A stretch of 64,000 nt of DNA from Calditrichales bacterium (GTDB taxonomy: Bacteria > Calditrichota > Calditrichia > Calditrichales > J004), in assembly GCA_015493745.1 (NCBI GenBank), contig WGCN01000029.1, positions 5,137 through 69,136 of the forward strand, read 5' to 3'. Shown here in pieces: positions 9,449 to 57,056 of this stretch. Position 1 is the first letter of the stretch. Each line of letters opens with the position of its first letter. The position numbers and the translations under genes are program-made. The notes beneath the pieces were generated by a model. That model was given only the letters and a program-made list of their open reading frames with translations, was not told the DNA's origin and made no database searches.

Positions 9449-9454
9449 GGAAAG

Positions 9455-10964: not shown

Positions 10965-10971
10965 AAAAGGT

Positions 10972-11184
10972 CTAGTTTTGCGCGTCCATTTTTTCGCGCA
11001 GGCTTTTAGGCCGCATATCGGTCCAAACCTCTTTTACATAGTCCAGGCACTCCTGCTTGCTGCCGGATTTACCGGCATCTTTCCAACCCGGTGCGTTTTC
11101 ACGGTCGGCCGGCCAAATTGAGTATTGCTCTTCATCGTTAACAACAACCTTGTAAACGGTTTTGTCTTCGCGTTCTTCACTCAT
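10972..11184 (-). CDS. MbtH-like protein
   Basis: 70 aa carrying the signature [28 protein letters not shown]...[15 protein letters not shown]. 4-bp ATGA overlap with the MFS gene. Confidence 0.95.
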
Positions 11185-26285: not shown

Positions 26286-29200
26286 TTAAGGCTTCCGTGA
26301 CCGGCGCGCCGGGCGTTTGGCGGCACGCGGGCCGCGTTCCACTTTCTCAATCTTCGGCTTGGCTTTAATGCCGCTGGCTTTGGCCACCTCCACGGCATCG
26401 GCCAGTTCGGCAACGGTCGGTTTTTCGAACAGGGTCAGCAGCGGCAGTTCGATGTCAAAGGTTTCCCTTATGCGCGACATAAACTGTGTGGCCAGCAGGG
26501 AGTGGCCGCCCAGGTCAAAAAAGTTATCAAAGACCCCCACCTTTTCATGGTGCAACAGCGCGGCCACAATCGTGACCAGGGTTTCTTCAATCTCGTTGCG
26601 TGGCGCCATATACTCCACGGTCAGGGTGGCACGATCCCGCTGCGGCAAGGGCAGGGCTTTGCGATCCACCTTGCCGTTGGGAGTCAGCGGCATGCTCTCC
26701 AACAGCATAAAATCGGCCGGTACCATATAATCGGGCAAGTGCTTTTTCAGATGGGCGATGACCGGCGCCGGATCACTATTTTCCTTTTCCGCGGCCACCC
26801 AATAGGCCACCAGCCGGTTCTCACCCCCCGCATCGGGCCACACGGTTACAAATTGATCGCGTACCAGCGGCGATTGGCTCATCACCGCCTCTATTTCGCC
26901 CAGTTCGATACGGAAACCGCGTACTTTGACCTGGTCATCTATTCGGCCCAGGAATTCCAGTTGACCGTCCGGCCGCCGCCGCACCAGATCCCCGGTGCGA
27001 TATAGCCGTTCACCGGGATTATCGGCGTAAGGGTGGGGGACAAATTTTTCCACGGTCAGTTCCGGCCGGTTATGATAACCGCGGGCCACACCGGTTCCCG
27101 ACACGCACAACTCACCGGGAACACCGGTTGCAACCGGGTTGAGCTTATCATCCAGTACGTAGGTTTTAAAATTGGCGTTGGCCATGCCGATGGGCGGCGT
27201 GGAGCTGTAGTTTCCTTCGCAGCGGTGCATGGTGGCGCAGACGGTGGTTTCCGTGGGGCCGTAGGCGTTGAAGAAACGGCGATCCCGGCTCCACTTATTG
27301 ACCAGGGGGCCGGGGACGGCCTCACCGGCGGTAATGATTGTCGTTAAATCCGGCAGTTGTTTATCCGGCCAAACCGCCAAAACGGAAGGCGGCAGGGTAA
27401 TGGTGGTAACCTTTTGCTCTTCCAGAAGGGTGGTTAACGCTTCAGCGTCGGCAATGGTCTCTTTCGAGGTCAGCACCAGCGCGGAACCGGAAAGCAGGGC
27501 CATCAGAAACTCCCAGGTGGCGGCGTCGAAACTGAGTGAGGCAAATTGCAGGATGCGACTGCCGGGGCCGGTTTCAAAGGCCTGTTGTTGCAGGGCGGCC
27601 AGATTGCAGGCGCCGCCGTGATGCAGCAGCGTGCCCTTGGGCCGGCCGCTGGAACCGGAAGTGTAGATGACATAGGCGAGATTGTCGGCATGCAGGCTAA
27701 CCCGGGGGGACTCCTCACTAAAACCGGCAAAGGCCTCGCTCCGGTCAACCGTGATGGTTTCTACCCGCTCATGGGTAAAAAGCGCCGACAGTTTTTCGCT
27801 GGTTACGATCTTTTGCAGACCGGAATCCCCGATCATGTAGGCGATACGCTCCCGGGGATATTGCGGATCGATGGGCAGATAGGCGGCGCCGCTTTTCAGG
27901 ATGCCCAGCATGGCAATGATCATTTCCGGGCCGCGTTCCACGGAGATGCCGATGATCTCTTCCCGCCGTACCCCGTCCTGAAGCAGCATATGCGCCAGAC
28001 GGTTGGCGGCGCGGTTCAGTTGCTCATAGGAGAGGATGACACTCTCCCTGCCGGGAGCGGACTGGAAAATAAGGGCCGGTTCACCGGGATGGCGTTGCGC
28101 CATGTCCTCGAACTTACCGGGGACGGTATGGGGTCCCCCGAATTCCGTTTCCGTTTGGTTGCCGTCCCGCAACAAGCGCTTTTTCTCTTCTTCGTCAAGG
28201 TATTCCGCTTCATCCACGGGAACTTCGATGTCTTCCAATACAGTATGCAGAATATTCTCAAAATGACCCATCATGCGCCGGATGGTTTCTTCACGGAAAA
28301 GGTCGCTGTTGTATTCAAACTGCCAGGCCATCGACTCGCCGGGGCTCACCGTAACCGACAGGTCGAATTTCGCGGTATGGGATGTATGTTCCAGAGCTTC
28401 CAGTTGAATGCCGGAAACCTCCACCGCGCTCTGCGGCAGGTTCTGATAGACGAACATAACCTGAAAAATGGGTGAGCGGCTGGTATCGCGCCGGGTGACC
28501 AGGGCGTCCACAATCTGCTCGAAGGGCACATCCTGATGGGCGTAAGCCTCCAGCATAAAATCACGTACCTCTAGTACCAGCGTTTCAAAATCGGGTTGGC
28601 CGCTGAAGTCGCTTTTCAGTATCAGGTTATTGACAAAAAAACCGATCAGCTTTTCCGTGCCGCTGTGGTTGCGGTTGGCGATGGGTGAACCGACGATGAT
28701 CTCGTCTTGCCGGCTATAACGGTGCAGCAGTGTTTGAAATGCGGCCAGCATGAACATAAAGGGGGTTACGCCGAGGGCGGCGCTTTCTTCACGGATGCGG
28801 GCGCTGAGCTCAGGCGAAAGGGTTTGCTGCACGGCGGCGCCGTTAAAGGTTTGCACGGCGGGCCGGGGAAAATCGTAAGGCAGTTCCAGCACCGGCGGGT
28901 TGTTGCCCAGGGAGGAACGCCAAAAATCGATCTGCCGCTCAAGAACCTCGCCCTGAAGCCATTGCTGCTGCCACAGGGCATAGTCGGCGTACTGCACTTC
29001 CAGGGGCGGAAGCTGGGCCGTTTTTTGCTCGCTGAAGGCGCGGTAAAGTTCGGCCATCTCGGAGATAAAGACCCCCATGGACCAGCCGTCGGCTATGGTG
29101 TGGTGCAGGGTGAGGGTGAAAATATGCGAGCCGGGACTTAGCACATGCAGACAGCTATGCCACAAGGGGCCGCGGGCCAGGTTGAAAACCTGACGGGCCG

Positions 29201-32669: not shown

Positions 32670-32726
32670 AGAAATAATCGTAAATCCTCATTGATTAGCT
32701 TTTAAAAAGGAGCCCGGCGGCGCCGG

Positions 32727-35700
32727 TTAACGGCGGCGGCCCTTTTTCTTTTTCCCCAATTGACCCAGGACTTTGTCGAGTTTTTTGTTATCCAGTCCGG
32801 CCATTTTAAAGTCGGAAGCGGTTTTGACGGCCGCCTGCGGATTCTTACAATGCTCCAATATCCCGCGGAGCTCCGCGATAAAGTCCTCAGCCCAGGAACG
32901 GATCGTTTCCTCGCGATGGAGTTCCCGGCTGTAACTGAACGTAAATTTAAGTATTCCGGCGCTGATCTGGCCGTTTATTTCCACGGCGGCCAGCCGCTCG
33001 GCGCCGGGATCATGATCCGGCCCCTGCCAGCTCCCGGATTCCCGGAACGGGCCTTCTTCCTCACCGCCGTCAAATTGTCCCAGATAGTTAAATATTATCT
33101 GCATCTTGTCCAACGGCTTTAGCGCATCCCGCATGGTTTTATCAGCAGACAAATAACGTAACACACCGAAACTTAGTCCATTGTGCGGAATCGCATGAAA
33201 CTGCTCTTTTATCGCTTTGATCTGCTCGCCGGTATCAACCGCCTTGCCCAGATCCAGCAACAGAGGATAAAGGGCGGTGAACCAGCCGATGGTATGGGAA
33301 ACATCCAGACTTTCCCGTATCTGTTCCCGGCCATGTCCTTCCAGATGAAGCAACATGCGCCGCTGCCCGCTCCATTTCCCGTAAGCGCGGATCAAGGCGC
33401 TGAGCAGAAGATCATTGATTTCCGTGTTGTAAGCCTTGTGCGCTTCACCGGTCAGCAACCGGCTTTGTTCGGCATCCAGGGAGACACTGATGTCGGCCTT
33501 GTCCTTTTCCAGATTGCGACCCCCGTTATAATCAACGGGTATTTGGGGCAGATTCTTACGACTCATGGCCTGCCAATAGGGGGCGTCTTCGCGGGCCTTG
33601 TCTGCCGCAAACTCCATTAAGGCCGCCGCCCATTGACGGTAGGAGCTGGTTTTTGCGGAAAGAATAATCTCCTGATCCAGGACGGCCAGGGCATAGGCCT
33701 GTTGAAAATCCTCCAGCAGGATTCGCCAACTGACGCCATCCATGGCCAGGTGATGAACGATAATGGCCAGATGGTCGTCCTTCTCTCCCCGGAAATACAA
33801 CACCTTTACGATGGGGCCCTTTTCCAGGTCGAATGAAGCCTGGGCCCGACGGCAATGACCTTCGATCTCATTATTTTCGTCACCGGAAAGGGCTATCTCT
33901 TCCAGTACGGCGTCGATGGCCGTGTTGTCGTCATAAAAGGCCTGCCGCCCTTCCCCGGAACTCCGGAACCGTAAACGCAGGGCGTCATGACGGGCGATCA
34001 GGGCCTGTACGGTTTTATGAAGGGCCGTGCTTTGCAGTTTTTCCGTCAGTTGGAACAGCACCGACTGATTCCAGTGCTGCATATGGGTTAAATTCCGCTC
34101 AAAGAAAAAATGCTGAATGGGCGTCAGGGGAAGTTCACCGCTTAGAACCCCTTCCTCGGTGTCCGTTTCCTTTCCTTTTTGGGCCACCAGCGCCAACTGG
34201 GCAATGGTCTGGTTCTGGAACATCTGCATGGGGGTCAGAAACAGCCCCTGCTCCCGGGCGCGGGAGATGACCTGGATGCTCATGATCGAATCCCCGCCCA
34301 GTTCAAAAAAGTTGTCATGGATGCCGACCTGTTTGATTTTCAGCACACCGCAAACGATATCGGCCAGAATCTTTTCATTCTCCGTGGAGGGTGCTACAAA
34401 TTTTGTTTCCAACTCCGGACGCGTATTATCGGGAAGGGGCAGGGCCTTGATGTCAATTTTTTTGTTGGGCGTCAGAGGAAAGGACTCCAGCCAGATGAAT
34501 ACGGCGGGAACCATATAATCCGGCAGGTGGGCCTTAAGAGTATCACGCAACTGGGGTACGGAGGGCCTGGCTCCTTCGCCGGCTGTCAGATAGGCCACCA
34601 GTCTTTGCATGCCCGGGCTGTCCTCACGGACGATGACCACGGCGTCCCGCACCCCGGAGGCTTCCTTCAGCCGGGATTCAATTTCACCCAGCTCGATGCG
34701 GAAGCCGCGCACCTTGACCTGATGATCTGCCCGGCCGATAAACTGTACCTGGCCGTCCCTGCGGTAACGCACAAGATCGCCCGTCCGGTACATGCGGGCG
34801 CCGGCCTTATCCGTAAACGGATCGGGAAGAAATTTTTCCGCGGTCAGTCCGGGCCGTTTCAGATAGCCCCGGGCCAGACCGGCCCCGGAGATGTAAAGTT
34901 CTCCGGCCACGCCCGGCGGTACGGGCTGCATATGGTCGTCGAGTATGTAGAAGGCGGCATTGGCCACCGGTTTGCCGATCACCGGGGTTTCGCCCGCCTC
35001 CCGGAGGTCGCAGATGGTGGAATCCACCGCGCATTCGGTGGGGCCGTACATGTTGAAGGTGGCCACATCCCGCGCTTCACGCAGTGTGTTCCATACCGAA
35101 GCGTCCAGGGCTTCGCCACCGGGCAAGAGCACCCGGGGTTTAAAGTGTTCGCCATCGAGCAGTCCGGCCTCGAGAATCAGTTTAAGTTGCGAGGGAACGC
35201 AGTCATAAACGGCAATGTGCTGTCCGCGGATGTATTCCAGCAACTGCCGGCCGTCGGCGCGGATTTCATCGGGGATGATAACCAGGCAATGTCCCAGAGC
35301 CATCATGACGATCTGCTGCATGGAAGCGTCAAAGGGCAGCGGCGCGTTAAGACTGATGCGCTGTTTCTCCGGCCCAAGGGGGGCATAGACTGTTGCCCGC
35401 AGGTTGTGCATCAGGTTGAGCGCGGCCCGGTGGCTGATCATTACCCCCTTGGGGCGCCCCGTGGAGCCGGAAGTGTAAATGACATAGGCCAGTTGGCGCG
35501 TATCCGCGACCAGGGGGGGGCAACTGTCGGTGTAGCTTTCAAAGCGCTCCCGGTCATCGATATCCACGGCCCGGGTTTGAGCCAGTTCCTCCAGGGCCAT
35601 GCCCGCGCGCATCAGGCAGAAGGCGGCCCGGGAATCCTTGAGCATGTAACTTATCCGCTCGGGAGGATAAAAGGGGTCCAGCGGCAGGTAGACGCCCCCG

Positions 35701-46989: not shown

Positions 46990-46998
46990 ATAGGCTTA

Positions 46999-47946
46999 TT
47001 AATTCCAATCTTCATCGCTGTATAGTTTATCGCTTACCGGGGAGGTTAAATGACGAATCGTATCTATTTCCCCGGTGGATAGCTGGGACTGCCATATCTT
47101 TATGTTCTCCAGACTGTTGCGCCGGAGAGTGTGCATTTTACCCTCCTTAGCCGCCGTGCGGTTTTGGGCGCCCGTGAATTTTTCTATTTGTCTTATTATC
47201 GAATCATCATAGACAAGACCAATTTCCCGGTATATTTTTTTAAAACTTTCGATAGGTTTCCTGGAAAGGTCTTCATGGCGGTAAAAAAGCCAGTCCTTGT
47301 GTCCATCGCGATACCGCAGCATAACCGTGGTAAAGATATTCCACACCAGGGCCTGGGTTTCGATGCTAAAGGGAATGAACTCTTGCGGCGCCCATTTGAG
47401 TATCTCGTCTCTGAAGTCCGCCAGCACTTCCTCCATAAGCGCCTCCTGCCGGGCCAGCCAGTCAAAGTTAAAGCCCCACTTCATCCTTTTCATACTGTTG
47501 ATGTATGCCGCGGGATGGCGGAACAGAAAAAGCATGCGGATATCGAGCCGGCGGCCAAGCCAGGGGGCCATGAAGATGGCAAAGGGATCCTGAATAACGG
47601 GGCGCATATGTTTTTTAAGGCGATGGTTGAGGGTAAAGTAACGCACCAGGTGATACAAATGGTACTTGGGCGAGGATGACTGCTTCATGTATATCTTTAA
47701 TTCCTGCCCGCTCAGACTAAGCCCCAGTCCGCTGCGCATTTTAAGAAACAACTCTTCATCCACTTCGGGAAAAAACGGGAAATTGGTACCGGCCCCAAAC
47801 AGGTGGATCGGTTCCCTTAAAAAATTAAACGGTTCCAGAACGTAAAACATCTCCGGTGACAAGGCGATCATTTTCGCCGTCCAGGTTGTACCGGATCGTT
47901 GCAGGCCGCTGACCAGAAGTGGTTTTTTGGTGTAATTTTCAGACAT
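46999..47946 (-). CDS. Sulfotransferase family protein (third free-standing copy, between two NRPS genes)
   Basis: 315 aa. PAPS loop SGLQRSGTTWTAKM near the N-terminus. LFLFRHPAAYINSMKR is the 3'-phosphate motif region. 9-bp gap to the downstream NRPS start and 203-bp gap to the upstream NRPS stop. Confidence 0.8.
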   Translation of the reverse strand: MSENYTKKPLLVSGLQRSGTTWTAKMIALSPEMFYVLEPFNFLREPIHLFGAGTNFPFFPEVDEELFLKMRSGLGLSLSGQELKIYMKQSSSPKYHLYHLVRYFTLNHRLKKHMRPVIQDPFAIFMAPWLGRRLDIRMLFLFRHPAAYINSMKRMKWGFNFDWLARQEALMEEVLADFRDEILKWAPQEFIPFSIETQALVWNIFTTVMLRYRDGHKDWLFYRHEDLSRKPIESFKKIYREIGLVYDDSIIRQIEKFTGAQNRTAAKEGKMHTLRRNSLENIKIWQSQLSTGEIDTIRHLTSPVSDKLYSDEDWN

Positions 47947-48149
47947 GGGTTACGCTTCTGTTTAGTATTTTTCTCTTGAATGCCGGTATCACATCCCCGC
48001 CGTTTCTTCCCGATAAAACAGGATTCTCGGGGAAAAGGGCAATTTATCCGTTTTTTCCGCTTTGCCGTATTCCGTATGTCACAAAATAAGCTGTAAAACT
48101 TTTATCATCATTTGCTTTTTTTGCAGAGCCCTTAAACCCCGGCAGGCGG

Positions 48150-51100
48150 CTATTCCAGGTCATCCAGCTCGGACAGAATATCATCCAACTCGTCCTGATC
48201 CACGCCCGCTTCACTGAAATCCGATGGCGTATAGCCGCCCGCATCCCCGCTCAGGCTGTGTTCAATGATTTCCTCAAGGGCCGCTATAAGCTGCCGGGCC
48301 AGGGACTCGATTCCGCTTTCTTCAAGCGTACCGGCGGAATAGTTAAAGTTGAAATTCAATTTACCGTCCAAAATACTTGAAGTAATCTCAAGCAGGTGAC
48401 TGCGCCTGTTCAGCGGCCCCACCTCGTCCCCGGTTTCGCCGGGCATCATCTCAAAACGTCTTTTCATGGCTTCATCCTGCTCAAACTGACCGAGATAGTT
48501 AAACAGGACGGTGGCCCGGGGCAGCCCGGCCATGGCCGCGCGTATTTCATCCCCGGCCAGGTAGCGCATCAGCCCGTAGCCCATGCCGTTTCCGGGAATG
48601 GAACGGAAATCTTCCTTAATGTTTTTAATGATTTCACCCGTATCCCCGGCCGTGGTATGCAGATGAAAGGGGTAGAGCGTGGTAAACCAGCCGATGGTAC
48701 GGGCCAGATCCACCTCTTCGAACAGGGCTTCCCGGCCGTGACCCTCCATGTCGATGAGCAGGCTCCGTTTTCCGTGAAGCCGGCGCCAGGCCATGAACAG
48801 AGCGCTGAGTATATTTTCCACGATGCGTGTGTTATAGGTCTCCGGCACTTCCCGTTGCAGCTTGTCGGTTAAGGCGGCCGACAGGCTTACCGAAAGGGTT
48901 TTCATCTCCTTTTGCAGGTTTTCGCCTTTACCGTCGGCCGTAAGCGTAACGGCCTCCGCGCCGATATGCCGCTGCCAGAAATTCAGTTCATCCTGCCAGT
49001 CGTGTTCCCGGGCATATCTTTGTAAGCGTTCGGCCCAATAGCGGAACGAGGTCGATTTGGCAGGCAAAGAGGGTTCCGCCCCTTCCTGCAGCCGGGCATA
49101 GGCCCATTGCAGGTCTTCCAGTAAAATACGCCAGGAAACGGCGTCCACCACCGTATGGTGCATGGAGATAAACAGACGGTCTCCCAAACGGCCGTCCAGG
49201 GAAATATAGACCATTTTAAACAGGGGACCGTTTATAAAATCATGTCCCGCCTGCGTGCGGCGGACTATTGCCTGCAATTCTTCCTGTTGCCGTTTCAGGT
49301 CAAGCTTTTTTAGGTCATACCGGGCAAAAATATCCTGTTCCGCAGGCGCAGCGATCTCGGGACCACTATCCGGCCAGCGCAGGCGCAGCATGTCATGATG
49401 GGTGAAAAGGGTGTGCGCCACTTTTTCCAAAAGGGTGGTATCCAGCTCTTCATGACTTTTCAGCATGATCGACTGGTTCCAATGATGACGCCGGGCCAGG
49501 GGGAGTTCCGAAAACCAGCGGAGTATGGGAGTGGCGGTAAGCGCGCCGGAGACCGGCTCCTGTTCGGCGTGTATGGCCACACCCTCGCGGGCCACGGCCG
49601 CCAGTCCTTCGATGGTCGGGTATTCAAACAACTCGCGGGGGGTAAAGCTGAGTCCCGCGCGTCCGGCGGCGGAAATAAGCTGTATGCCCACGATGGAATC
49701 ACCGCCCAGTTCAAAGAAATTGTCCAAAACACCCACTTTTTCCAATTTGAGCGTTTTCTGCCAAAGTTCGGCCAGCAGGGCCTCCCGTTCATTCCGGGGA
49801 GCCACATAACTTGTTTCCAACCGGCTGCGACCCAGTTCCGAGGGATCGGGCAGGGCTTTGCGGTCGATCTTTCCGTTGGCGGTCAGGGGAATGGCCTCCA
49901 CAAAAATCCAGGCCGAGGGAATCATATAATCGGGCAGGGCCGATTTTAGCTCCTCACGCAGGGCACCCGGCGACGGCTGTTCGTCACGGCTGACGATATA
50001 GGCCACCAGGGCTTTTTCACTGCTGCCGAAAGCACGTACCAGTACCACGCAATCCTCCACGGAGGGCAGGTGGCGCAGAGCCTGTTCGATCTCCCCCAGT
50101 TCAATACGGAAACCGCGCACCTTGACCTGATGGTCGATGCGGCTGATGTATTCGATCTCCCCGTTTGGCAGAAAACGGCACACATCGCCGGTTTTATACA
50201 TGCGTGCGCCGGGACGGCTGCTGAAAGGATCCGGGATAAACTTCTCTGCGGTCAGATCGGGACGGTTGGCGTAGCCGCGGGCCAGTTGAACGCCGCCGAT
50301 ATGCAGTTCACCGGAAACACCCACGGGCACCGGGTTCAATGCCGGATTGAGAATGTAGAGCTGTGTATTGGCCACGGGACGGCCGATGGGCAGTTTCTCA
50401 TCCTCCCGTTGACTTGGGCAGGTGTAGTGGCTGACGTCGATGGAGGCCTCCGTGGGGCCGTAAAGGTTATGCAGCCGCGCCGAGGGCAGAATGCGGTAAA
50501 AATCGCGGCTCAGGGCGTAGGGCAGGGCCTCGCCCGAGCAGATAACATTTTTCAGGGAAGCACAGCCGGCGGCGGCAGGATCCTCCAGGAATACCTTGAG
50601 CATGGGCGGCACAAAATGCATGGTGGTGATATGTTCCCGTCGGATCAGCTCCGTAAGATAGGCCGTATCCTTGTGTCCTTCCTCCCGGGCCACCACCAGT
50701 CGCGCGCCATACATAAAAGGCCAGAAAAATTCCCAGACAGAAACATCAAAACTAAAGGGGGTTTTTTGCAGAACCGTATCCGCTTCCGTCAGCGGGTAGG
50801 CCTGCTGCATCCATTGCAAACGGTTAAGAAAACCCTCATGGGGTAACAGGGTACCCTTGGGCTTGCCTGTCGAGCCGGAGGTGTATATCATATAGGCCAG
50901 TTGCCGGGGATGGAAATCCGTTTTTGGCACAGGCGCGCCTGTACCGTCCAGCTCTTTATCCCAGTGGTCGGTTAGCACCAACCGGGTCGTCGTATCGGCA
51001 AATTTTTCGCTCAGGTCTGAGGAGGTGATAACGATCGGCGCTCCGGCGTCTTCCAGCATAAAACGTGTACGCTCCAGCGGATGCGCCGGATCCAGCGGCA

Positions 51101-54100
51101 CATAAACGCCTCCGGCGCGCATAATGCCGTGCAGGGCGATTACCAGCTTATCGGAGCGCTGCAGGCATACGCCCACGCGGTCTTCCTTTTTCAAACCGCT
51201 TTCCCTCAGGATGTGAACCAGCCGGTTTATCCGCCGGTCAAACTCATCGTAAGGGATCGTTTTGCCCTCATAGGTCAATGCCGGAGCGTCGGGTGTTTTC
51301 CCCGCCTGCTCCATGATCCGTTCCGGTACGGTTTTCCCCGTGTCGTAGCGCACCTCCGTCCGGTTCCACTGATAAAGGAGCTTGCCTTGCTCATCACCGG
51401 TACAGAGGGTGATGTTCCGCACCGGGGTATCCGTAGCGCTAACCACCTGCCGCAGGAGGTGTTTATAATGTTCCAGCAGCCGTTCAATGGTGTCATCGCG
51501 GAACAGGGCGCTGTTGTACTCAAAGGCGCCGCGTAAATTATCACTGTCAAACATTTCCAGCAACAGGTCAAATTTGGCCGTACCGCTGTCGGTGCGGTAA
51601 GGCTTTACCTGAAAGTGTTTGCTAAACTCGCGGGTATCATCCCCCTGCATGGAAAACATCACCTGAAAAAGAGGGGTGTGTTCCAGACTGCGTTCCACCT
51701 TAAGGGCGTCCAGCAGCTTTTCAAAAGGGTAATCCTGATGGCTGAGTATTTCCCGCGCCTTCTCCTGAACCCGGGCCAAAACATCGCGAAAACGGTCACC
51801 TTCTTTAAAACGGGTACGCATAACGATGGTATTGACAAAAAAGCCGATCAGGGCTTCCATTTCTTTTTGTGTTCGTCCGGCCACGGGGGTGCCGATAAGC
51901 ACATCGTTCTGGTTGGCATAATGATGCATCAATGTCTGAAAGGCAGCCATGAGAACCATAAAGGCGGTGGTGCCTTCGTCGGTACAGCAGTTGCGTATTT
52001 GCCGGGAAAGGTCTTCGCCCAGATCAAAATAAATGCGCCTCCCCTCGGCCTGGCCTCCCGCTTTGCGCGGAAAATCGGTGGGGATTTCCAGCAGCGGAGG
52101 CGCTCCCGCCAGTTCTTTCTCCCAAAATTGCAACTGACGGCGGGCATGGTCGCTTTCGATCCACTCGCGCTGCCAGACGGCCACATCTACATATTGTATG
52201 GCCAGGGGAGCCGTGTCCGGCTGCTGTTTTTCCACAAGACGGTCGTAATTCCGGCTCAGCTCGTGAATGAATATACCGTTCGACCAACCGTCGGTAATGA
52301 TGTGGTGGGCCACCAGCACCAGTATGGATTCATCTTCCCGCAAACGGATCAGATCCGTATGAAACAGGGGCAGCGTATCCAGTTGAAAGCTCACCCGGGA
52401 AAGGGCTTCCACCAGTTGGCGCGCTTTGTCTTCCGCCTCGCCAAAGGGCAGGGCGCGCAGGTCGTGTACCCTGAGCTTACAATGAAAACGGCCGTGGATT
52501 TTTTGCATGCCCTGTCCTTCCACCGTGTGAAAGGTGGTGCGCAGGATTTCATGCCGGTTTATCAGAAAATTCAGGCTTTGCTCAAACAGCCTGCTCTCCA
52601 CCGCTCCGTGGATGCGTATGGCTCCCGGTACGTTGTATTGCTTGTTACCCGGTTCCAGCTGGTCAATAAACCACAGACGCTGCTGGGCAAAGGAAAGCGG
52701 CATATAGGTTTGCCGGGCCACGCTTTTGATACGGGTCAGTTCGGCGGAAAAAACAGACGGGGATATTTCCGTCCGGGTTTCGTAATTAAACAAGGCGGCC
52801 AGTTCTTCCGTCCGCGCCGACAGAAAATCTTCCTTATGGAATTTGCGCCATTTATCGGCAACATTGTTGTTGATGTTTTGATGCAGGTAAAATTTAAAAT
52901 CACCAACCATCTGTGAGCTGTCCTTAAGGCCGTCGGTCATTTTTTGCCCCTGATACGGCTGAAGCATTTCTTCGGAAAAGGGGAGGGACAGAAAATCACA
53001 CAGACGCCGTATTTCCGCTTCCGGCCGGAAAAGCAAATCTTCAAAACGCAGCAGGATATGCCGCTCACCCGGTATCCGCTGCAAAAAGTCCAGAATATTT
53101 TGATGACTGTTAAGCCAGATCAGTTCTGCCAGTTGCTGACGGTTAAAGGGGTGTTTGTACTTAAAAAAGTTTTTATCCAGCTTGGCTTCGATAAAAGAAT
53201 AGATCATGGCGTAGGGATGCCGCAACAGATGGATATAGAGCGGCTGGTCAAAATCCTCTTCGGCCCGTTGCAGGATGGCCGGATCCAGGGCATAGGACGG
53301 TGTCTTGTCGACCAGCAGTTTCTGCTGGAGCCCCTCCTGCAGAAAATGATAAAAGTCCTTTACCGTGGTATCCTTGTTTTCGATATCACGCATAATCTTT
53401 TCGGCCTCTGCGGTGGAGAGGTGTTTGATCTCTTTCAGGGCCTGGGTGGTGGCTTCCAGCCACAGCGGCAGCTTTTCTTCCTTAAAAAAGCGATAACGCT
53501 CGCCCATGGTATTGAAGGAGAGAAGGTCTAACTCCGGTGGTGAAAACAGACCCGGATTCCCGGCCAACATGACCCGCAACAGGGTGGAGCCTGAGCGTGG
53601 CGGGGAAAGCAGAAAAACGGCTTTTTTATTTTTAGCCTTGTGCACCGGAGGAACCGTGCGCGGGGCCAGGGGCCGTACAATGCCCCGGAAGAGTTCGATG
53701 TCTTCCTCACGCAGCTTGTTTTTGGCCGATATGGGACTGCTGGACAGGACATAGTTCTTTTGTTCGGGAAAGGAAACATTGAATTGTTTCAGCACTTCCT
53801 GGGAAAAATATTCCTGGGCAAACATGGCAAATTCGGCGATACGCGGAGCCTGAAAGATCATGCCCACATGCAATTTTTGCTCCACCACCTCCTGCAAGCG
53901 GTTCATCAGCACCGCCGCCTTAAGCGAGTTCCCCCCCAGATCGAAGAAATTGTCATACATACTGATTCTCGAAACACCGAGAATATCCTGCCAGACCTCT
54001 GCCAGGTAAGACTCCAGCCGGTTCCGGGGGGAAACAAAACGGGCCTTGGCACGGGAAGTCTCTATGTTGATGTCCGGCAAGGCGCGGCGGTCGATTTTCC

Positions 54101-57056
54101 CGTTGGCGGTTAGCGGAAAGCTTTTTAGGGCGATGAAAAAGCCGGGAATCATATAGTCGGGAAGTTTCCGGCCGGCATATTGGCGCAGGTCGTCCGTCGG
54201 AATTTCCTGACCGTTTTCCGTAACATACCAGGCGGTGATGGCCTTTTCCGCGGACTCACCCCGTACCAGTACGACACATTCTTTAATTTTCGGGTGATCA
54301 AGCAACACCGCTTCTATTTCACCCAGTTCGATGCGGAAACCGCGCACCTTAACCTGATGGTCGATACGTTCCAGATATTCGATGTTGCCGTCGGGAAGAT
54401 AGCGGCACAGGTCGCCGGTTTTATACATCCGGCCGCCGTTGGCGGAGGTATAGGGATTGGCTATGAATTTTTCCGCGGTCAGAGCCGGCCGGTTGGCATA
54501 ACCGCGCGCCAGTTGCACCCCGGCGATGTAGAGCTCGCCCGCCACGCCCGGCGGTACGGGATTGAGGGCCTCATCCAGGATATAAACCCGGGTATTGGCT
54601 ATCGGCTTGCCGATGGGCAGCTTTTTATCGGATCGCTCCTGTGGGCAGATATAGGCGGTTACATCAACCGCTGCTTCCGTCGGCCCGTACAGGTTGATCA
54701 GGGTCGTATCCGGCAGGGTGCGGTAAAATTGTTGGCTCAGGGCATAGGGCAAAGCCTCTCCCGAGCAGATAACCCGTTTCAGCGAGCGGCATTCCGCGCT
54801 TTGCCGGTTTTCCAGAAAGACCTTGAGCATGGGTGGTACAAAGTGCATGGTGGTAACGCCGTGGCTCCGGATGATGTCGCAAAGATAGGCGGTATCCTTA
54901 TGACCCTCGGCATGAGCCACGGCCAGGGTGGCACCGTACATGAAGGGCCAAAAAAACTCCCAGACGGAGACGTCGAAGCTGAACGGTGTTTTTTGCAAAA
55001 CAACATCGCTCATGCCCAGGGGATAGCTCCTTTGCATCCAGATCAGACGGTTGAGGATGGCGCGATGTTCCAGCAGGGTGCCCTTGGGTTTACCCGTGGA
55101 ACCGGAGGTGTAGATCATGTAGGCCAATTGACGCGGGTCGATTTCAACCTGCGGAGCATCGGCCGCCTGGGAATTGAGCATTCCCAAATCCCTCTCGAGA
55201 ACAAGGGTTTTAACCGGCTGTTTATCAAACAATCCCTTAAGTGCCGGCTGGGTAATCATCAGCTTTACGCCGGAATCTTTCAACATATAGGCGCGGCGGT
55301 CGGCGGGATGGTGCGGATCGAATGGAACATAGGCGCCACCGGCCTTTAAAATCGCGTGCAGGGTGATTACCATTTCCACCGAACGTTCCATGCAAACACC
55401 GACACGGTTGTCCCGTCCCACGCCTTCGGCGATCAACAGGCGGGCCAGTTGATTGCTGCGCCGCTCAAAATCGGCATAGCTGATCCGGCCCTCATCAAAC
55501 AACAGGGCGGGGTGTTCCGGATGTTCCCGGGCGAAACGCTCCGTGTACTGATGGATGAACGGCCTTTGCGGGTAGTCCTCTTCCGTTTGATTCCAGTCCC
55601 CGAGTATGGCCTTTTTCTCTGCCGGCGTCAGAAGATTGATGTGATTCAGGGCGGTGCGCGGCTCGCGGCCGATCTGTTCCAGTAGATGGGTGAAATGGTG
55701 CATCATGCGTTCGATCGTTTCCGGTTCAAACAGGGCGCTGTTGTATTCGATGACACCATGGAGGCTGTCACGGCAGTCTTCCATGATCAACAGCAGATCA
55801 AATTTTGCCGTACCCGTTTCAAAATCTATGTTTTCCAGGGTCAGATCGCCGAAATTGAGCCCGGCCAGGGCGTCGCCCTGAAGTTCAAACATCACCTGGA
55901 AAAGAGGGGAAACCTGGTTGTTCCTTTGGGGTTGTACCTTCTCCACCACCTGTTCAAACGGCACATCCTGATGGTCATAGGCCTGGAAGGCCCGTTTTTT
56001 AACCCGGGAGAGAAAATCGAGAAAAGAGATATCTCCCTGACAGCGGGCGCGGATCACCAGAGTGTTGACAAAAAATCCGATCAGGGTTTCCAGCTCTTTT
56101 TTATTGCGGTTGGCAATGGGGATGCCCACGCCGAAGTCATCCTGATGGGAATAGCGGTACAGCAGGGTCTGGAAGGCGGCCAGCAGAGTAATGAATAAGG
56201 TGGTACCCGCCTGCCGGGATAATTCATGCAGTCTTTTTGTGGTGGCCGCGTCAATGGAAAAGTGATGATGACTTCCCTTAAAACTTTGCACGGCCTCACG
56301 CTTATGGTCGAAGGGCAATTCCAGCAGTGTGGGCATGCCTTTCAGTTCGGAAGACCAGAAATCGAGTTGTTTACGCAGCTTTTTTTCATCGGCGGCATTT
56401 TTTTGCCACCAGGCATAATCAAAATACTGGATGGGCAGGGCCTCGAGCGTGACGGAGGTATCTCCGTTGAAACGGCGGTAAAAGCGGGCCGTCTCATTGA
56501 TGAAAACGCCCATGGACCAGCCATCGGCCACAATGTGGTGGATGGTCAGCATCAAAACATGTGTCTGTTCGTCCAGACGGATCAGCCGGGTACGGATAAG
56601 CGGGGCCCGGGTTAGGTCAAAAGGAGTCTGGGCCTCGGCGGCGGCGATCTCTTCCAGGGAACGGGCATCCTTATTTTCCATGATCAGGGGGATAAAAAGC
56701 CCCTCCGCCTTATGCTGAACAGGCGCCCCTTTTTCGGTGCGGAAGAAAACCTGCAAAACCTCATGACGCTCGACAACGGCATTGATGCTTTTTTCCAGAT
56801 GGGCCGCGTTTAAGGGGCCGTAAAACTTAACCGCCGCACTGATGTTGTACAGCGGGCTTCCGGGAACAAGCTGGTCAAAAAACCATAAACGCTCCTGGGC
56901 ATAGGAGAGGGGATAGCTCTCCCTGTCCGGCCGGGGTTGTATGGTTTCCGGGCGGCTTTCTGCCGTACTCTTTTTTTTGCGGGCCTGTAATTTTTTCAGG
57001 AGAAGTTCGCGCTGTTCAGGGCTTAGGTTTTGCAGCTTTTTGGAAAGATCGCTCAT
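48150..57056 (-). CDS. NRPS, modules 2-3, with an embedded sulfotransferase domain (C-A-T-ST-C-A-T-E)
   Basis: HHIVADGWS and HHIITDGWS. Both A domains carry Ser-type codes (DVWHISLVDK, DVWHISLIDK). Carrier 1 is GGNSLKAAV. A ~280-aa ST insert follows. Carrier 2 is GGDSIVGIQ. E motif MHHTVVDAVSWRIL. Acidic tail DELDDILSELDDLE. Confidence 0.97.
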   Translation of the reverse strand: MSDLSKKLQNLSPEQRELLLKKLQARKKKSTAESRPETIQPRPDRESYPLSYAQERLWFFDQLVPGSPLYNISAAVKFYGPLNAAHLEKSINAVVERHEVLQVFFRTEKGAPVQHKAEGLFIPLIMENKDARSLEEIAAAEAQTPFDLTRAPLIRTRLIRLDEQTHVLMLTIHHIVADGWSMGVFINETARFYRRFNGDTSVTLEALPIQYFDYAWWQKNAADEKKLRKQLDFWSSELKGMPTLLELPFDHKREAVQSFKGSHHHFSIDAATTKRLHELSRQAGTTLFITLLAAFQTLLYRYSHQDDFGVGIPIANRNKKELETLIGFFVNTLVIRARCQGDISFLDFLSRVKKRAFQAYDHQDVPFEQVVEKVQPQRNNQVSPLFQVMFELQGDALAGLNFGDLTLENIDFETGTAKFDLLLIMEDCRDSLHGVIEYNSALFEPETIERMMHHFTHLLEQIGREPRTALNHINLLTPAEKKAILGDWNQTEEDYPQRPFIHQYTERFAREHPEHPALLFDEGRISYADFERRSNQLARLLIAEGVGRDNRVGVCMERSVEMVITLHAILKAGGAYVPFDPHHPADRRAYMLKDSGVKLMITQPALKGLFDKQPVKTLVLERDLGMLNSQAADAPQVEIDPRQLAYMIYTSGSTGKPKGTLLEHRAILNRLIWMQRSYPLGMSDVVLQKTPFSFDVSVWEFFWPFMYGATLAVAHAEGHKDTAYLCDIIRSHGVTTMHFVPPMLKVFLENRQSAECRSLKRVICSGEALPYALSQQFYRTLPDTTLINLYGPTEAAVDVTAYICPQERSDKKLPIGKPIANTRVYILDEALNPVPPGVAGELYIAGVQLARGYANRPALTAEKFIANPYTSANGGRMYKTGDLCRYLPDGNIEYLERIDHQVKVRGFRIELGEIEAVLLDHPKIKECVVLVRGESAEKAITAWYVTENGQEIPTDDLRQYAGRKLPDYMIPGFFIALKSFPLTANGKIDRRALPDINIETSRAKARFVSPRNRLESYLAEVWQDILGVSRISMYDNFFDLGGNSLKAAVLMNRLQEVVEQKLHVGMIFQAPRIAEFAMFAQEYFSQEVLKQFNVSFPEQKNYVLSSSPISAKNKLREEDIELFRGIVRPLAPRTVPPVHKAKNKKAVFLLSPPRSGSTLLRVMLAGNPGLFSPPELDLLSFNTMGERYRFFKEEKLPLWLEATTQALKEIKHLSTAEAEKIMRDIENKDTTVKDFYHFLQEGLQQKLLVDKTPSYALDPAILQRAEEDFDQPLYIHLLRHPYAMIYSFIEAKLDKNFFKYKHPFNRQQLAELIWLNSHQNILDFLQRIPGERHILLRFEDLLFRPEAEIRRLCDFLSLPFSEEMLQPYQGQKMTDGLKDSSQMVGDFKFYLHQNINNNVADKWRKFHKEDFLSARTEELAALFNYETRTEISPSVFSAELTRIKSVARQTYMPLSFAQQRLWFIDQLEPGNKQYNVPGAIRIHGAVESRLFEQSLNFLINRHEILRTTFHTVEGQGMQKIHGRFHCKLRVHDLRALPFGEAEDKARQLVEALSRVSFQLDTLPLFHTDLIRLREDESILVLVAHHIITDGWSNGIFIHELSRNYDRLVEKQQPDTAPLAIQYVDVAVWQREWIESDHARRQLQFWEKELAGAPPLLEIPTDFPRKAGGQAEGRRIYFDLGEDLSRQIRNCCTDEGTTAFMVLMAAFQTLMHHYANQNDVLIGTPVAGRTQKEMEALIGFFVNTIVMRTRFKEGDRFRDVLARVQEKAREILSHQDYPFEKLLDALKVERSLEHTPLFQVMFSMQGDDTREFSKHFQVKPYRTDSGTAKFDLLLEMFDSDNLRGAFEYNSALFRDDTIERLLEHYKHLLRQVVSATDTPVRNITLCTGDEQGKLLYQWNRTEVRYDTGKTVPERIMEQAGKTPDAPALTYEGKTIPYDEFDRRINRLVHILRESGLKKEDRVGVCLQRSDKLVIALHGIMRAGGVYVPLDPAHPLERTRFMLEDAGAPIVITSSDLSEKFADTTTRLVLTDHWDKELDGTGAPVPKTDFHPRQLAYMIYTSGSTGKPKGTLLPHEGFLNRLQWMQQAYPLTEADTVLQKTPFSFDVSVWEFFWPFMYGARLVVAREEGHKDTAYLTELIRREHITTMHFVPPMLKVFLEDPAAAGCASLKNVICSGEALPYALSRDFYRILPSARLHNLYGPTEASIDVSHYTCPSQREDEKLPIGRPVANTQLYILNPALNPVPVGVSGELHIGGVQLARGYANRPDLTAEKFIPDPFSSRPGARMYKTGDVCRFLPNGEIEYISRIDHQVKVRGFRIELGEIEQALRHLPSVEDCVVLVRAFGSSEKALVAYIVSRDEQPSPGALREELKSALPDYMIPSAWIFVEAIPLTANGKIDRKALPDPSELGRSRLETSYVAPRNEREALLAELWQKTLKLEKVGVLDNFFELGGDSIVGIQLISAAGRAGLSFTPRELFEYPTIEGLAAVAREGVAIHAEQEPVSGALTATPILRWFSELPLARRHHWNQSIMLKSHEELDTTLLEKVAHTLFTHHDMLRLRWPDSGPEIAAPAEQDIFARYDLKKLDLKRQQEELQAIVRRTQAGHDFINGPLFKMVYISLDGRLGDRLFISMHHTVVDAVSWRILLEDLQWAYARLQEGAEPSLPAKSTSFRYWAERLQRYAREHDWQDELNFWQRHIGAEAVTLTADGKGENLQKEMKTLSVSLSAALTDKLQREVPETYNTRIVENILSALFMAWRRLHGKRSLLIDMEGHGREALFEEVDLARTIGWFTTLYPFHLHTTAGDTGEIIKNIKEDFRSIPGNGMGYGLMRYLAGDEIRAAMAGLPRATVLFNYLGQFEQDEAMKRRFEMMPGETGDEVGPLNRRSHLLEITSSILDGKLNFNFNYSAGTLEESGIESLARQLIAALEEIIEHSLSGDAGGYTPSDFSEAGVDQDELDDILSELDDLE
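48237..49559 (-). other. Epimerization (E) domain, module 3
   Basis: Downstream of the GGDSI carrier (Ser codon 49695..49697). Contains HHTVVDAVSWRILLEDLQWAY. The next NRPS in the line begins with a DCL-type C domain. Confidence 0.85.
52782..53627 (-). other. Embedded CurM/olefin-synthase-type sulfotransferase (ST) domain, aa ~1144-1425 of the 2968-aa NRPS
   Basis: AVFLLSPPRSGSTLLRVMLAGNPGLFSPPELDLL (the Ala codon is at 53621..53619), LLVDKTPSY, YIHLLRHPYAMIYSF and LLRFEDLLFRPEAEIRRLCDFLSLPF. It lies between carrier Ser 1044 (53925..53927) and the next C domain, which starts MPLSFAQQRLWF at ~52715. Confidence 0.85.

What the first reader, a model, noticed from the sequence alone, without database searches (positions are those of the whole stretch)
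26286..57056. The assembly line contains a duplicated four-module block, and only the first copy carries the sulfotransferase insertions
Genes 48150..57056 plus 40525..46989 and genes 32727..40550 plus 26286..32669 share the same architecture: C-A-T-C-A-T-E followed by DCL-A-T-C-A-T. They start with similar heads (MSDLSKKLQNLSPEQRELLLKKLQARKKK versus MSKAADKLAHLSPEQKKLLAQKLKAKKQ; IEDIYPLSPMQQGMLFH versus IQDIYPLSPMQQGMLFH). They encode parallel tetrapeptides, Ser-D-Ser-Ser-Phe and Ser-D-Gln-X-Phe. The first copy differs by the in-line ST domain after its first carrier and by the free ST gene inserted between its two genes. This looks like an ancient ~14-kb block duplication followed by ST acquisition in one copy. 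The second copy therefore serves as a natural ST-free comparison for locating the insertion boundaries.
Basis: partly seen in the sequence, partly recalled or inferred. Interest (0 to 1): 0.6.

Follow-up and report, generated by a model that had tools for sequence, protein, structure and literature searches.

The report
Repeated NRPS architecture, not provable duplication
Two four-module stretches of a Caldithrix lipopeptide assembly line share the same domain order and make similar tetrapeptides. Their sequences are no more alike than unrelated NRPS domains, apart from the amino-acid-selecting cores, so a 14-kb block duplication cannot be shown, and the sulfotransferase arrived as a carrier-plus-sulfotransferase cassette.

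Summary
G1+G2 and G3+G4 are C-A-T-C-A-T-E followed by DCL-A-T-C-A-T. Specificity codes predict Ser-D-Ser-Ser-Phe and Ser-D-Gln-X-Phe. Only G1 carries an in-line sulfotransferase (ST), and a free ST gene sits between G1 and G2.

- There is no collinear DNA similarity.
- Positional partners are 38-43% identical in C and E domains. That is at or below other in-cluster pairs and below many NRPS domains from other phyla.
- Single-domain trees pair only the Phe A domains (99%) and the two carriers that precede E domains, which is a functional subtype.
- Sliding windows show excess similarity only in the Ser and Phe A-domain cores.
- Concatenated trees give moderate support (47-100%), so a very old, eroded duplication is not excluded.
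- Six further orthologous Calditrichota clusters (seven with the window; the G2 protein is 46-84% identical to the window's) already have the full 4+4 layout and the free ST. The five whose G1 is on the contig also have the in-line ST.

The in-line ST is CurM-type and travels with its own carrier subtype as a T-ST cassette that is widespread in NRPS modules. The free ST is unrelated to it. Two more ST genes lie at 6549-8710.

The parts
48150..57056 (-). G1, 2968 aa: LCL(45-485)-A(506-987, Ser code)-T(1017-1078)-ST-LCL(1449-1894)-A(1915-2396, Ser code)-T(2427-2487, GGDSI)-E(2506-2946, HHxxxDA variant)
52722..54059 (-). T-ST cassette (G1 aa ~1000-1445). The carrier has a GGNSL core and is followed by a CurM/OLS-type sulfotransferase. 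The extra sequence relative to a normal 22-aa T-C linker is aa ~1085-1431 (52764..53804). The CurM-like core is aa ~1136-1428 (52773..53651).
46999..47946 (-). Free-standing probable sulfotransferase, 315 aa. It has no significant similarity to the in-line ST and is conserved between G1 and G2 in all 7 orthologous clusters.
40525..46989 (-). G2, 2154 aa: DCL(12-456)-A(477-956, Ser code)-T(985-1046)-LCL(1069-1514)-A(1535-2006, Phe code)-T(2036-2097)
32727..40550 (-). G3, 2607 aa (start possibly 40532): LCL(35-475)-A(496-970, Ser code)-T(999-1060)-LCL(1083-1530)-A(1551-2031, Gln code)-T(2061-2121, GGDSI)-E(2140-2580, HHxxxDG)
26286..32669 (-). G4, 2127 aa: DCL(5-447)-A(468-941, code DASTIVGIGK, unassigned)-T(970-1031)-LCL(1054-1500)-A(1521-2000, Phe code)-T(2030-2091)
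40702..41970 (-). Phe A-domain core plus T2 of G2. This is the one diagonal DNA match between the blocks: 64.5% over 1311 bp to 26400..27677 in G4. The two Phe A domains are robust in-cluster paralogues.
26400..27677 (-). Phe A-domain core plus T2 of G4, the partner of 40702..41970
37854..38669 (-). Ser A-domain core of G3.A1. It matches all three Ser A cores of block 1 off the diagonal at 66-69% DNA identity: 44341..45156 (G2.A1), 50076..50898 (G1.A2) and 54312..55125 (G1.A1).
12691..26247 (-). G5, 4518 aa: four LCL-A-T modules (Orn, Asn, Tyr, Tyr codes) plus a C-terminal thioesterase. It supplies the in-cluster comparison domains. Modules 3 and 4 are the clearest tandem module duplicate (C 50%, A 56%).
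57080..60433 (-). U1, 1117 aa: LCL-A-T. It has the same kind of N-terminal head as G1 and G3. Its C domain shares a rare 4-residue deletion with G1.C1 and G3.C1.
6549..8710 (-). Two tandem free sulfotransferase genes (364 and 365 aa, 40% identical to each other). They are unrelated by BLAST to the other two STs.

Best explanation
The window holds a hybrid PKS/NRPS lipopeptide cluster from a Caldithrix-like bacterium (Calditrichota).

The predicted order of the line is:
- a PKS module (KS-AT-KR-ACP)
- U1 (one residue)
- G1 (Ser, D-Ser)
- G2 (Ser, Phe)
- G3 (Ser, D-Gln)
- G4 (X, Phe)
- G5 (Orn, Asn, Tyr, Tyr, thioesterase)

The two four-module stretches look alike because they follow the same assembly-line logic, not because a recognisable 14-kb segment was copied. 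In each, a two-module subunit ends in an epimerase. The next two-module subunit starts with a DCL condensation domain that accepts the D-residue. Carriers that feed an epimerase carry the GGDSI signature.

Demonstrable in-cluster paralogy is limited to A-domain cores sorted by substrate, plus G5 modules 3 and 4:
- four Ser cores, with G1.A1 and G1.A2 closest to each other
- the two Phe cores
- the two Tyr cores, within the G5 module 3/4 pair, whose C domains also pair (C 50% identity, 70% bootstrap)

Whatever copying built the line predates the radiation of this cluster family. All seven orthologous clusters already have the 4+4 layout and the free ST, and the six whose G1 is available also have the in-line ST.

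The in-line ST is a CurM/OLS-type enzyme. It came with its own carrier subtype as a T-ST cassette and most likely O-sulfonates the carrier-bound serine of G1 module 1.

Shown here: the architecture, the specificity codes, the similarity ranks, ST homology and the cassette distribution.
Inferred: the D-configuration of the residues, the ST substrate and the product.
For: No collinearity at DNA level.
- The strongest block1/block2 hits are three off-diagonal Ser A cores that all match G3.A1, plus one diagonal Phe A core.
- Hits to G5 are comparable in strength.

Identity matrices.
- The positional LCL pairs are 38, 40 and 41% identical, within an in-cluster range of 36-50%.
- G1 without its ST against G3 is 42.4%, and G2 against G4 is 43.3%. 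Comparisons with G5 windows give 41-45%.

BLAST ranks against about 190 outgroup NRPS proteins.
- 60-290 of 366 outgroup LCLs outscore the positional partner.
- 38-79 of 98 outgroup E domains do.
- 12-68 of 212 outgroup DCLs do.

NJ bootstrap with 7 orthologous clusters.
- LCL pairs: 0-26%.
- E pair: 4-19%.
- Phe A pair: 99-100%.
- G1.A1+G1.A2: 97-100%.

Other tests.
- Sliding windows: the partner exceeds all outgroups only in the A cores.
- There are no block-specific shared rare residues or indels. The one rare deletion is shared by U1.C1, G1.C1 and G3.C1.
- Profile-profile scores rank the positional LCL pairs 2nd, 6th and 14th of 15.
- G1.T2 and G3.T2 both have GGDSI cores.
- The family is conserved.

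ST evidence.
- The in-line ST matches 4gbm (CurM ST) at 5.7e-71.
- 95 of about 150 representative hits have the context A-T-ST-LCL.
- G1.T1 scores higher against carriers that precede STs (median 62 bits) than against other carriers of the same proteins (48 bits). All other window carriers show the reverse.
- A domains of such modules are enriched for Ser and Thr codes.
Against: Concatenated NJ analyses do group the partners.
- G2+G4: 100% against 138 outgroup di-modules. With in-cluster alternatives (LCL+T of the second module) this falls to 65-72%.
- G1+G3: 47-80% against G5 windows and outgroups.
- G2.DCL+G4.DCL are sisters in the point-estimate tree: 97% with the 42 nearest outgroups, 34-38% with all 212.
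- G2.C2+G4.C2 are sisters in the point-estimate tree.

Orthologues within the family fall to 42-47% identity in the DCL domain. A pre-family duplication would therefore be expected to look like background.

NJ with simple distance corrections is vulnerable to long-branch effects in either direction, and no ML or site-heterogeneous analysis could be run.

Identical 10-residue codes at positions 1 and 4 of both blocks fit a duplication as well as they fit selection on the product.
Confidence: 0.58

Rival explanations
1. A true ancient duplication of the whole four-module block. It would be older than the radiation of the cluster family. It would have been followed by saturation of C/E/T divergence, A-domain swaps at positions 2 and 3, and replacement of the first carrier of copy 1 by a T-ST cassette.
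For: - The architecture is identical and the products follow a periodic Ser-D-x-x-Phe pattern.
- Concatenated NJ support is 47-100%.
- The DCL pair is sister in the point-estimate tree.
- Phe A cores pair at 99%.
- The T-ST cassette replacement would explain why G1.T1 does not pair.
Against: - G1.C1/G3.C1 never pair (0-1%, rank 14 of 15). U1.C1 is closer to G3.C1 (37-52%) and shares the rare deletion.
- The E domains are separated by outgroups in the full tree.
- Outside the A cores, partner similarity mostly falls at or below the outgroup median for G1/G3 and never exceeds all outgroups in either pair.
- There are no block-specific rare states or indels.
- The subtype-bound pairs (E, DCL, GGDSI carriers) have no in-cluster alternative and so carry no weight.
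Confidence: 0.27
2. Only the second subunits (G2 and G4, DCL-A-T-C-A-T) are ancient gene duplicates. G1 and G3 were assembled independently.
For: - G2+G4 is an exclusive clade at 100% against 138 outgroup di-modules. It stays at 100% without both A domains and is 66-88% on smaller domain subsets.
- DCL sister at 34-97%.
- C2 sister in the point-estimate tree, and 2nd of 15 by hhalign.
- G2.T1's best hit overall is G4.T1.
- Phe A at 99%.
Against: - The sliding-window excess is confined to the Phe A core.
- With in-cluster alternatives the LCL+T support is 32-72%.
- G4[A1..T2] is more similar to G5 modules 3-4 (45.1%) than to G2 (43.3%).
- 3-5 in-cluster LCLs outscore the partner.
Confidence: 0.15

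Closest known systems
Module or subunit duplication in NRPS evolution (the general, well-known mode of assembly-line growth)
   Same: - The subunit architecture is repeated and the product has a periodic residue pattern.
- Some domains are clear in-cluster paralogues: the Ser, Phe and Tyr A cores, and G5 modules 3 and 4.
   Different: - There is no collinear similarity across the proposed 14-kb unit.
- Condensation and epimerisation domains at matching positions are no closer than unrelated NRPS domains.
E | DCL subunit junctions of multi-protein NRPSs (for example the gramicidin S, tyrocidine and surfactin type; docking review PMC9113145 seen but not read)
   Same: - An epimerase sits at the C-terminus of one subunit and a DCL condensation domain at the N-terminus of the next.
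- The carrier before the epimerase has a GGDSI core.
   Different: - The docking (COM) helices were not examined.
- G1's epimerase has a conserved HHxxxDA in place of HHxxxDG.
CurM / olefin synthase ACP-ST-TE (PDB 4GBM, 4GOX)
   Same: - The in-line ST is a close homologue (E 5.7e-71 and 5.7e-67).
- Its PAPS loop PRSGSTLLRVMLAG is identical.
- It sits directly after a carrier domain.
   Different: - Here it follows a Ser-loading NRPS carrier and is followed by a condensation domain, not a thioesterase.
- Decarboxylative elimination is therefore not the obvious outcome.
In-line STs of NRPS loading modules: cyanopeptolin OciA (PMC2533009) and dysinosin DysB (PMC6520454)
   Same: A sulfotransferase domain is embedded in an NRPS protein, and in those pathways the sulfate is retained in the product.
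   Different: - Those act on glyceric acid loaded by an FkbH-type domain in a starter module.
- This one sits in a Ser elongation module, and Pfam finds no FkbH domain in G1.

Membership tests
Segmental (block) duplication | Collinear similarity along the whole unit at DNA or protein level, above background | tested here: not met
   - blastn finds only A-core hits, mostly off the diagonal.
- Sliding windows show an excess only in the A cores.
- Global identity is 42-43%, the same as against G5 windows.
Segmental (block) duplication | Domains at matching positions are each other's closest in-cluster relatives | tested here: not met
   - Met only for the Phe A2 pair (99%).
- Met trivially for E, DCL and the GGDSI carriers, which have no in-cluster alternative.
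- Not met for C1, C2 of G1/G3, C2 of G2/G4 (16-26%), A1, A2 of G1/G3, A1 of G2/G4, T1 of G1/G3 and T2 of G2/G4.
Segmental (block) duplication | Partners form an exclusive clade when outgroups are added | tested here: inconclusive
   - E: 4-19%.
- DCL: 34-97%, depending on sampling.
- Concatenations: 47-100%.
- NJ only; no ML analysis was possible.
Segmental (block) duplication | Shared derived characters (rare residues or indels) specific to the partners | tested here: not met
   - Shared-rare-state counts are 1-3 for positional pairs and up to 5 for non-positional pairs.
- The one rare deletion is shared by U1.C1, G1.C1 and G3.C1.
Modular NRPS with epimerisation | C, A, T and E domains with core motifs; DCL domain after E | tested here: met
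   - Pfam hits.
- HHxxxDG is present in the C domains.
- EGHGRE and FNYLG are present in both E domains.
- DCLs are 21-28% identical to LCLs and 43% to each other.
CurM/OLS-type activating sulfotransferase | Sequence homology to the CurM ST, including the PAPS-binding loop | tested here: met
   4gbm_A at 5.7e-71 over 293 residues, with the PRSGSTLLRVMLAG stretch identical.
CurM/OLS-type activating sulfotransferase | ACP-ST-TE arrangement giving decarboxylative elimination to a terminal alkene | tested here: not met
   - The ST is followed by an LCL condensation domain.
- 95 of about 150 representative homologues have A-T-ST-LCL.
CurM/OLS-type activating sulfotransferase | Sulfonation of a beta-hydroxyl on a carrier-bound substrate | not testable with these tools
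   This is inferred only. The upstream A domain has a Ser code, and A domains of T-ST modules are enriched in Ser and Thr codes.
Carrier subtype preceding E domains (PCP-E) | GGDSI core instead of GGHSL | tested here: met
   G1.T2 has FFELGGDSIVG and G3.T2 has FFELGGDSIMS. Ten other carriers have a GGHS[LIM] core and G1.T1 has GGNSL.
NRPS loading-module ST (OciA/DysB type) | ST together with FkbH-type glycerate loading | tested here: not met
   The Pfam scan of G1 lists only Condensation, AMP-binding, AMP-binding_C, PP-binding and Sulfotransfer families.

The most novel reading that the evidence does not exclude
C-A-T-ST may be a widespread, essentially uncharacterised NRPS module type. It would consist of a CurM-type sulfotransferase fused to its own carrier subtype (GG[DN]S[IL] core) and would sulfonate the side-chain hydroxyl of a carrier-bound Ser or Thr during chain elongation. 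The sulfate would then either be kept in the product or serve as a leaving group for dehydroalanine/dehydrobutyrine formation by the next condensation domain.

The Caldithrix cluster would then be one member of this type. Its second block would not be a pre-insertion relic but simply a stretch of ordinary modules.
Probability: 0.45. Interest if true: 0.6.

Novelty: new member of a known kind. Interest (0 to 1): 0.3.

Why it matters
For the finding as stated, the result is mostly a caution. Identical NRPS domain order and similar N-terminal motifs do not show duplication. Epimerase/DCL junctions, carrier subtypes and substrate-matched A cores produce the same picture. The second block therefore cannot serve as a sequence-level 'before' state for the ST insertion.

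Three results are useful:
1. The insertion is mapped. The extra sequence is G1 aa ~1085-1431, and the co-inherited T-ST cassette is aa ~1000-1445.
2. The cluster has four sulfotransferases from three lineages that are unrelated by sequence.
3. The cluster family is conserved across divergent Calditrichota, a phylum for which the literature search found no papers on nonribosomal peptides.

The widespread A-T-ST-C module type deserves its own follow-up.

Tried and rejected
- **Raw identity and BLAST ranks alone.** I rejected these as sufficient because rate differences can hide sister relationships. I added orthogroups from six further clusters and NJ bootstraps.
- **DCL sisterhood at 97%**. It looked like support, but it dropped to 34-38% with all 212 outgroups. 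Mean partner identity (40.9%) is below the best outgroups (43-46%). I treat it as unstable.
- **Concatenated G2+G4 at 100%**. That test has no in-cluster alternatives. With them, support is 32-72%.
- **My first regex for the 'LSPEQR' head.** It found 0 of 52 outgroup heads because it was too strict. Reading the heads showed the same L-x-P-E-x-R-x-L-L helix in U1, P0141, P0103, P0095 and the Pseudomonas synthetases.
- **Concerted evolution of the A cores.** I looked for it and rejected it. Within-genome paralogue identity is not raised over between-genome values, except mildly in L013.
- **In-line and free STs as paralogues.** Rejected: BLASTP E = 0.039, limited to the PAPS loop.
- **Literature searches** for an in-line ST in NRPS elongation modules and for Caldithrix NRPS found nothing specific.
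- **Not used:** the third homologous-protein search (orthologues of G5), genome-contig scans, and structure prediction.
Full report
**1. What is there**

All genes in question lie on the minus strand. Pfam counts and domain mapping with seeds and HMMs built from the window give the following.

| Gene | Window coordinates | Domains |
|---|---|---|
| U2 | 60472..63984 | PKS end: KS-AT-KR-ACP |
| U1 | 57080..60433 | LCL-A-T |
| G1 | 48150..57056 | LCL-A-T-ST-LCL-A-T-E |
| free ST | 46999..47946 | 315 aa |
| G2 | 40525..46989 | DCL-A-T-LCL-A-T |
| G3 | 32727..40550 | LCL-A-T-LCL-A-T-E |
| G4 | 26286..32669 | DCL-A-T-LCL-A-T |
| G5 | 12691..26247 | four LCL-A-T modules plus thioesterase |

I extracted Stachelhaus codes by aligning to a GrsA-PheA segment. 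I recalled that segment from memory and checked it: it returns DAWTIAAICK. The codes are:
- G1: DVWHISLVDK, DVWHISLIDK
- G2: DVWHISLVDK, DAWTIAAVCK
- G3: DVWHISLVDK, DAQDLGMVDK
- G4: DASTIVGIGK, DAWTIAAVCK

Against published codes (from memory) these read Ser, Ser, Ser, Phe and Ser, Gln, unassigned, Phe. G5 reads Orn, Asn, Tyr, Tyr. Both E domains carry the EGHGRE and FNYLG motifs. G1's E has a conserved HHxxxDA in place of HHxxxDG.

**2. Source and conservation**

- The free ST protein occurs identically in a MAG (GCA_054032435.1) and in hydrothermal-vent metagenomes.
- The G4 protein is 99% identical to a protein labelled 'MAG TPA: Caldithrix abyssi'. That species belongs to the phylum Calditrichota.
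- Six further contigs carry orthologous clusters. Five have the layout U1, G1 with in-line ST, free ST, G2, G3, G4. The sixth (L013) is cut off upstream and shows free ST, G2, G3, G4.
- Their G2 proteins are 84, 66, 66, 58, 56 and 46% identical to the window's.
- The 4+4 layout and the free ST are therefore older than this whole family. The in-line ST is seen in every cluster whose G1 is on the contig.

**3. Test of the duplication at DNA level**

blastn of 40525..57056 against 26286..40550 gives no collinear diagonal.
- The best hits are the ~830-bp cores of the three Ser A domains of block 1. All three match the single Ser A domain of block 2 (G3.A1) at 66-69%.
- There is one diagonal hit between the Phe A domains (64.5% over 1.3 kb).
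- Hits of either block to G5 are of comparable strength.

**4. Test at protein level, domain by domain**

Identity within the window:
- Positional LCL pairs are 38, 40 and 41% identical. The 55 in-cluster LCL pairs range from 36 to 50%.
- G1.C1 is closer to G5.C1 and U1.C1 (43%) than to G3.C1.
- A domains group by substrate. The four Ser domains are 51-59% identical and the two Phe domains are 51%.
- The DCL pair (43%) and the E pair (39%) have no in-cluster alternative.

Comparison with about 190 NRPS proteins from other organisms:
- 60-290 of 366 outgroup LCLs outscore the positional partner.
- 38-79 of 98 outgroup E domains do.
- 12-68 of 212 outgroup DCLs do.

NJ trees using all seven orthologous clusters as orthogroups:

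| Pair | Bootstrap for an exclusive clade |
|---|---|
| G1.C1+G3.C1 | 0-1% |
| G1.C2+G3.C2 | 9-12% |
| G2.C2+G4.C2 | 16-26% (sister in the point-estimate tree) |
| E pair | 4-19% |
| DCL pair | 97% with the 42 nearest outgroups; 34-38% with all 212 |
| Phe A pair | 99-100% |
| All other positional A pairs | 0% |
| G1.T2+G3.T2 | 88% |
| Other T pairs | 0-13% |

- G1.T2 and G3.T2 are the only GGDSI carriers, that is, carriers that precede an E domain.
- In the full E tree, G1.E sits next to an outgroup and G3.E next to a group of seven outgroups.
- The robust in-cluster pairs are G1.A1+G1.A2 (97-100%) and G5.A3+G5.A4 (96-100%).

**5. Aggregate and fine-scale tests**

Concatenations give more support.
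- G2+G4 scores 100% against 138 outgroup DCL-A-T-LCL-A-T segments, even without the A domains. That test has no in-cluster alternatives.
- At module level with alternatives, LCL+T gives 65-72% for G2m2+G4m2 and 75-82% for G1m2+G3m2. The latter falls to 17% without the GGDSI carrier.
- Di-module G1+G3 against G5 windows gives 47-80%.

Sliding windows of 80 columns show that partner identity exceeds every outgroup only in the A cores. These are the Phe core for G2/G4 and the Ser core for G1/G3. Elsewhere it never exceeds all outgroups, and for G1/G3 it mostly falls at or below the outgroup median.

Further checks:
- Counts of shared rare conserved residues show no excess for positional pairs.
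- The only shared rare indel is a 4-residue deletion common to U1.C1, G1.C1 and G3.C1.
- hhalign scores between orthogroup profiles rank the positional LCL pairs 2nd, 6th and 14th of 15.
- Global identities are 42.4% for G1 without ST against G3, and 43.3% for G2 against G4. Comparisons with G5 windows give 41.4-45.1%.

**6. Reading of these results**

It is not excluded either:
- Orthologues within the family already fall to 42-47% in the DCL domain.
- A pre-family duplication would therefore look like background.
- The concatenated NJ support is moderate.

I could only run NJ with simple corrections. Long-branch effects could create or hide the grouping.

I put about 0.58 on 'same logic, no recognisable block duplication, paralogy limited to A cores'. 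I put 0.27 on an eroded whole-block duplication and 0.15 on a duplication of the G2/G4 subunit only.

**7. The heads**

- The L-S-P-E-Q-R/K-x-L-L head of G1 and G3 is also present in U1 (KLPPEKRAVLEMML).
- It appears in similar form in unrelated synthetases, including P0141, P0103, P0095 and the Pseudomonas lipopeptide synthetases.
- The IxDIYPLSPMQxGMLFH string is the start of the DCL domain and occurs in 69 of 211 outgroup DCLs.
- Neither motif is evidence for a block relationship.

**8. The sulfotransferases**

*In-line ST.* It is a close homologue of the CurM and olefin-synthase STs (4gbm 5.7e-71, 4gox 5.7e-67, identical PAPS loop).

*Free ST.* It shows no significant similarity to the in-line ST and has no PDB hit on its own. 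A profile of its seven orthologues finds only weak hits, nearly all of them sulfotransferases.

*Distribution of the T1+ST region.* A full-database search with G1 aa 1005-1448 found 2573 proteins at E ≤ 1e-30. The alignments span carrier and ST together.
- Of the top 150 representatives, 95 have the context A-T-ST-LCL, and some carry two such units.
- G1.T1 (core GGNSL) scores higher against carriers that precede STs in non-family proteins (median 62 bits) than against the other carriers of the same proteins (48 bits). Every other carrier of the window shows the reverse.
- Carriers before STs have GG[DN]S[IL] cores rather than GGHSL.
- A domains of these modules are enriched for Ser (DVWH..., 23 of 115) and Thr (DFW[NS][IV]GMVHK, 21 of 115) codes. 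Among the other A domains of the same proteins, 10 of 167 have Ser codes.

*Boundaries.*
- Along G1, similarity to non-family C-A-T-ST-C segments exceeds similarity to ST-less in-cluster modules from about aa 1000 to 1445.
- Relative to the six ordinary 21-22-aa T-C linkers of the cluster, the extra sequence is aa ~1085-1431.
- The C-terminal half of the linker (RIKSVARQTYMPLSF) is retained.
- The unit that was acquired is therefore a T-ST cassette, not an ST dropped into a T-C linker.

*Other ST genes.* Two more ST genes lie in tandem at 6549..7643 and 7613..8710. They score 4e-36 and 6e-35 against Sulfotransfer_3 and are 40% identical to each other. They sit next to a PPTase, a type II thioesterase, a DUF2238 protein and an MFS transporter.

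**9. Mechanism (inferred)**

- The line should make an acylated or polyketide-primed tridecapeptide: X-Ser-D-Ser-Ser-Phe-Ser-D-Gln-X-Phe-Orn-Asn-Tyr-Tyr.
- The in-line ST most likely sulfonates the hydroxyl of the Ser held on G1.T1. The basis is the Ser code, the CurM-type enzyme fused to its own carrier, and the Ser/Thr enrichment elsewhere.
- Whether the sulfate is retained or eliminated was not testable. Retention is the outcome in the OciA/DysB precedents (PMC2533009, PMC6520454).
- The three free STs could act on other Ser or Tyr residues, including those of the 'ST-free' second block.

**10. Comparison with known systems and novelty**

This is a new member of a known kind: a modular PKS/NRPS with E|DCL subunit junctions. 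The repeated architecture is ordinary.

The T-ST cassette in an elongation module is a variant that I did not find described in four full-text searches. The known cases are:
- ACP-ST-TE in CurM and the olefin synthases
- STs in glycerate-loading NRPS starter modules

**Verdict.** Interest for the finding as stated is low to moderate (0.3).

Noticed in passing
window 6549..7643 and 7613..8710 (- strand): Two more free sulfotransferase genes lie in tandem. They score 4e-36 and 6e-35 against Pfam Sulfotransfer_3 and are 40% identical to each other. They are unrelated by BLAST to the in-line ST and to the free ST at 46999. The cluster therefore has four STs of three lineages.
   Followed up: partly
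window 8726..12596 (- strand): Cluster accessory genes: PPTase (8726..9448), type II thioesterase (9455..10222), DUF2238 membrane protein (10223..10834) and MFS transporter (11181..12596). Further out lie a GAF/sigma-54 activator (4071..5525) and a Ser/Thr kinase with a PEGA domain (2540..4069).
   Followed up: partly
G1 aa 1005-1448 (window 52713..54044) and proteins P0209-P0358: The T-ST didomain is widespread, with 2573 proteins at E ≤ 1e-30. Among the top 150 representatives, 95 are A-T-ST-LCL NRPS modules. Several proteins carry two cassettes, and P0213 has T-ST-T-ST in tandem. Upstream A domains are enriched for Ser and Thr codes.
   Followed up: partly
window 48219..49541 (G1 E domain) and orthologues: The epimerase of G1 has HHxxxDA instead of HHxxxDG in all six available orthologues, whereas G3's epimerase is canonical. 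U1's C domain has HHIVSDN.
   Followed up: no
L008, L009, L011, L012, L013 compared with the window (A domains of G2 and G3): Specificity codes differ between otherwise orthologous clusters. G3.A2 has a Gln code in the window and L007 but an Asn code (DATK[IV]GEVGK) in the other five. G2.A1 has an Asn code in L011 and DVIIVGGVCK in L013. G3.A1 is DAEDVGSIIK in L013. These orthologous A domains are only 36-41% identical, which points to A-domain replacement.
   Followed up: partly
L013 7730..15931: The G3 orthologue is 2733 aa, against about 2600 elsewhere. Its second A domain is split by the HMM into 1569-1715 and 1749-2155, which suggests an insertion.
   Followed up: no
window 39126..40448, 55602..56924, 58988..60313: U1.C1, G1.C1 and G3.C1 share a rare 4-residue loop deletion that is present in 41 of 366 outgroup LCLs. 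All three follow an N-terminal L-x-P-E-x-R-x-L-L head. G5.C1 has neither feature.
   Followed up: partly
window 40525..40550: The longest G3 ORF overlaps the end of G2 by 26 nt. Orthologues and one gene call start 6-7 codons later (MSKAADKL...), which gives the 8-nt overlap seen in the other clusters.
   Followed up: no
whole window: G+C is 0.47-0.52 in the flank at 1-12 kb, 0.57-0.60 across G5-G3, and 0.51-0.56 across the free ST, G1 and U1/U2. The composition is uneven along the cluster.
   Followed up: no
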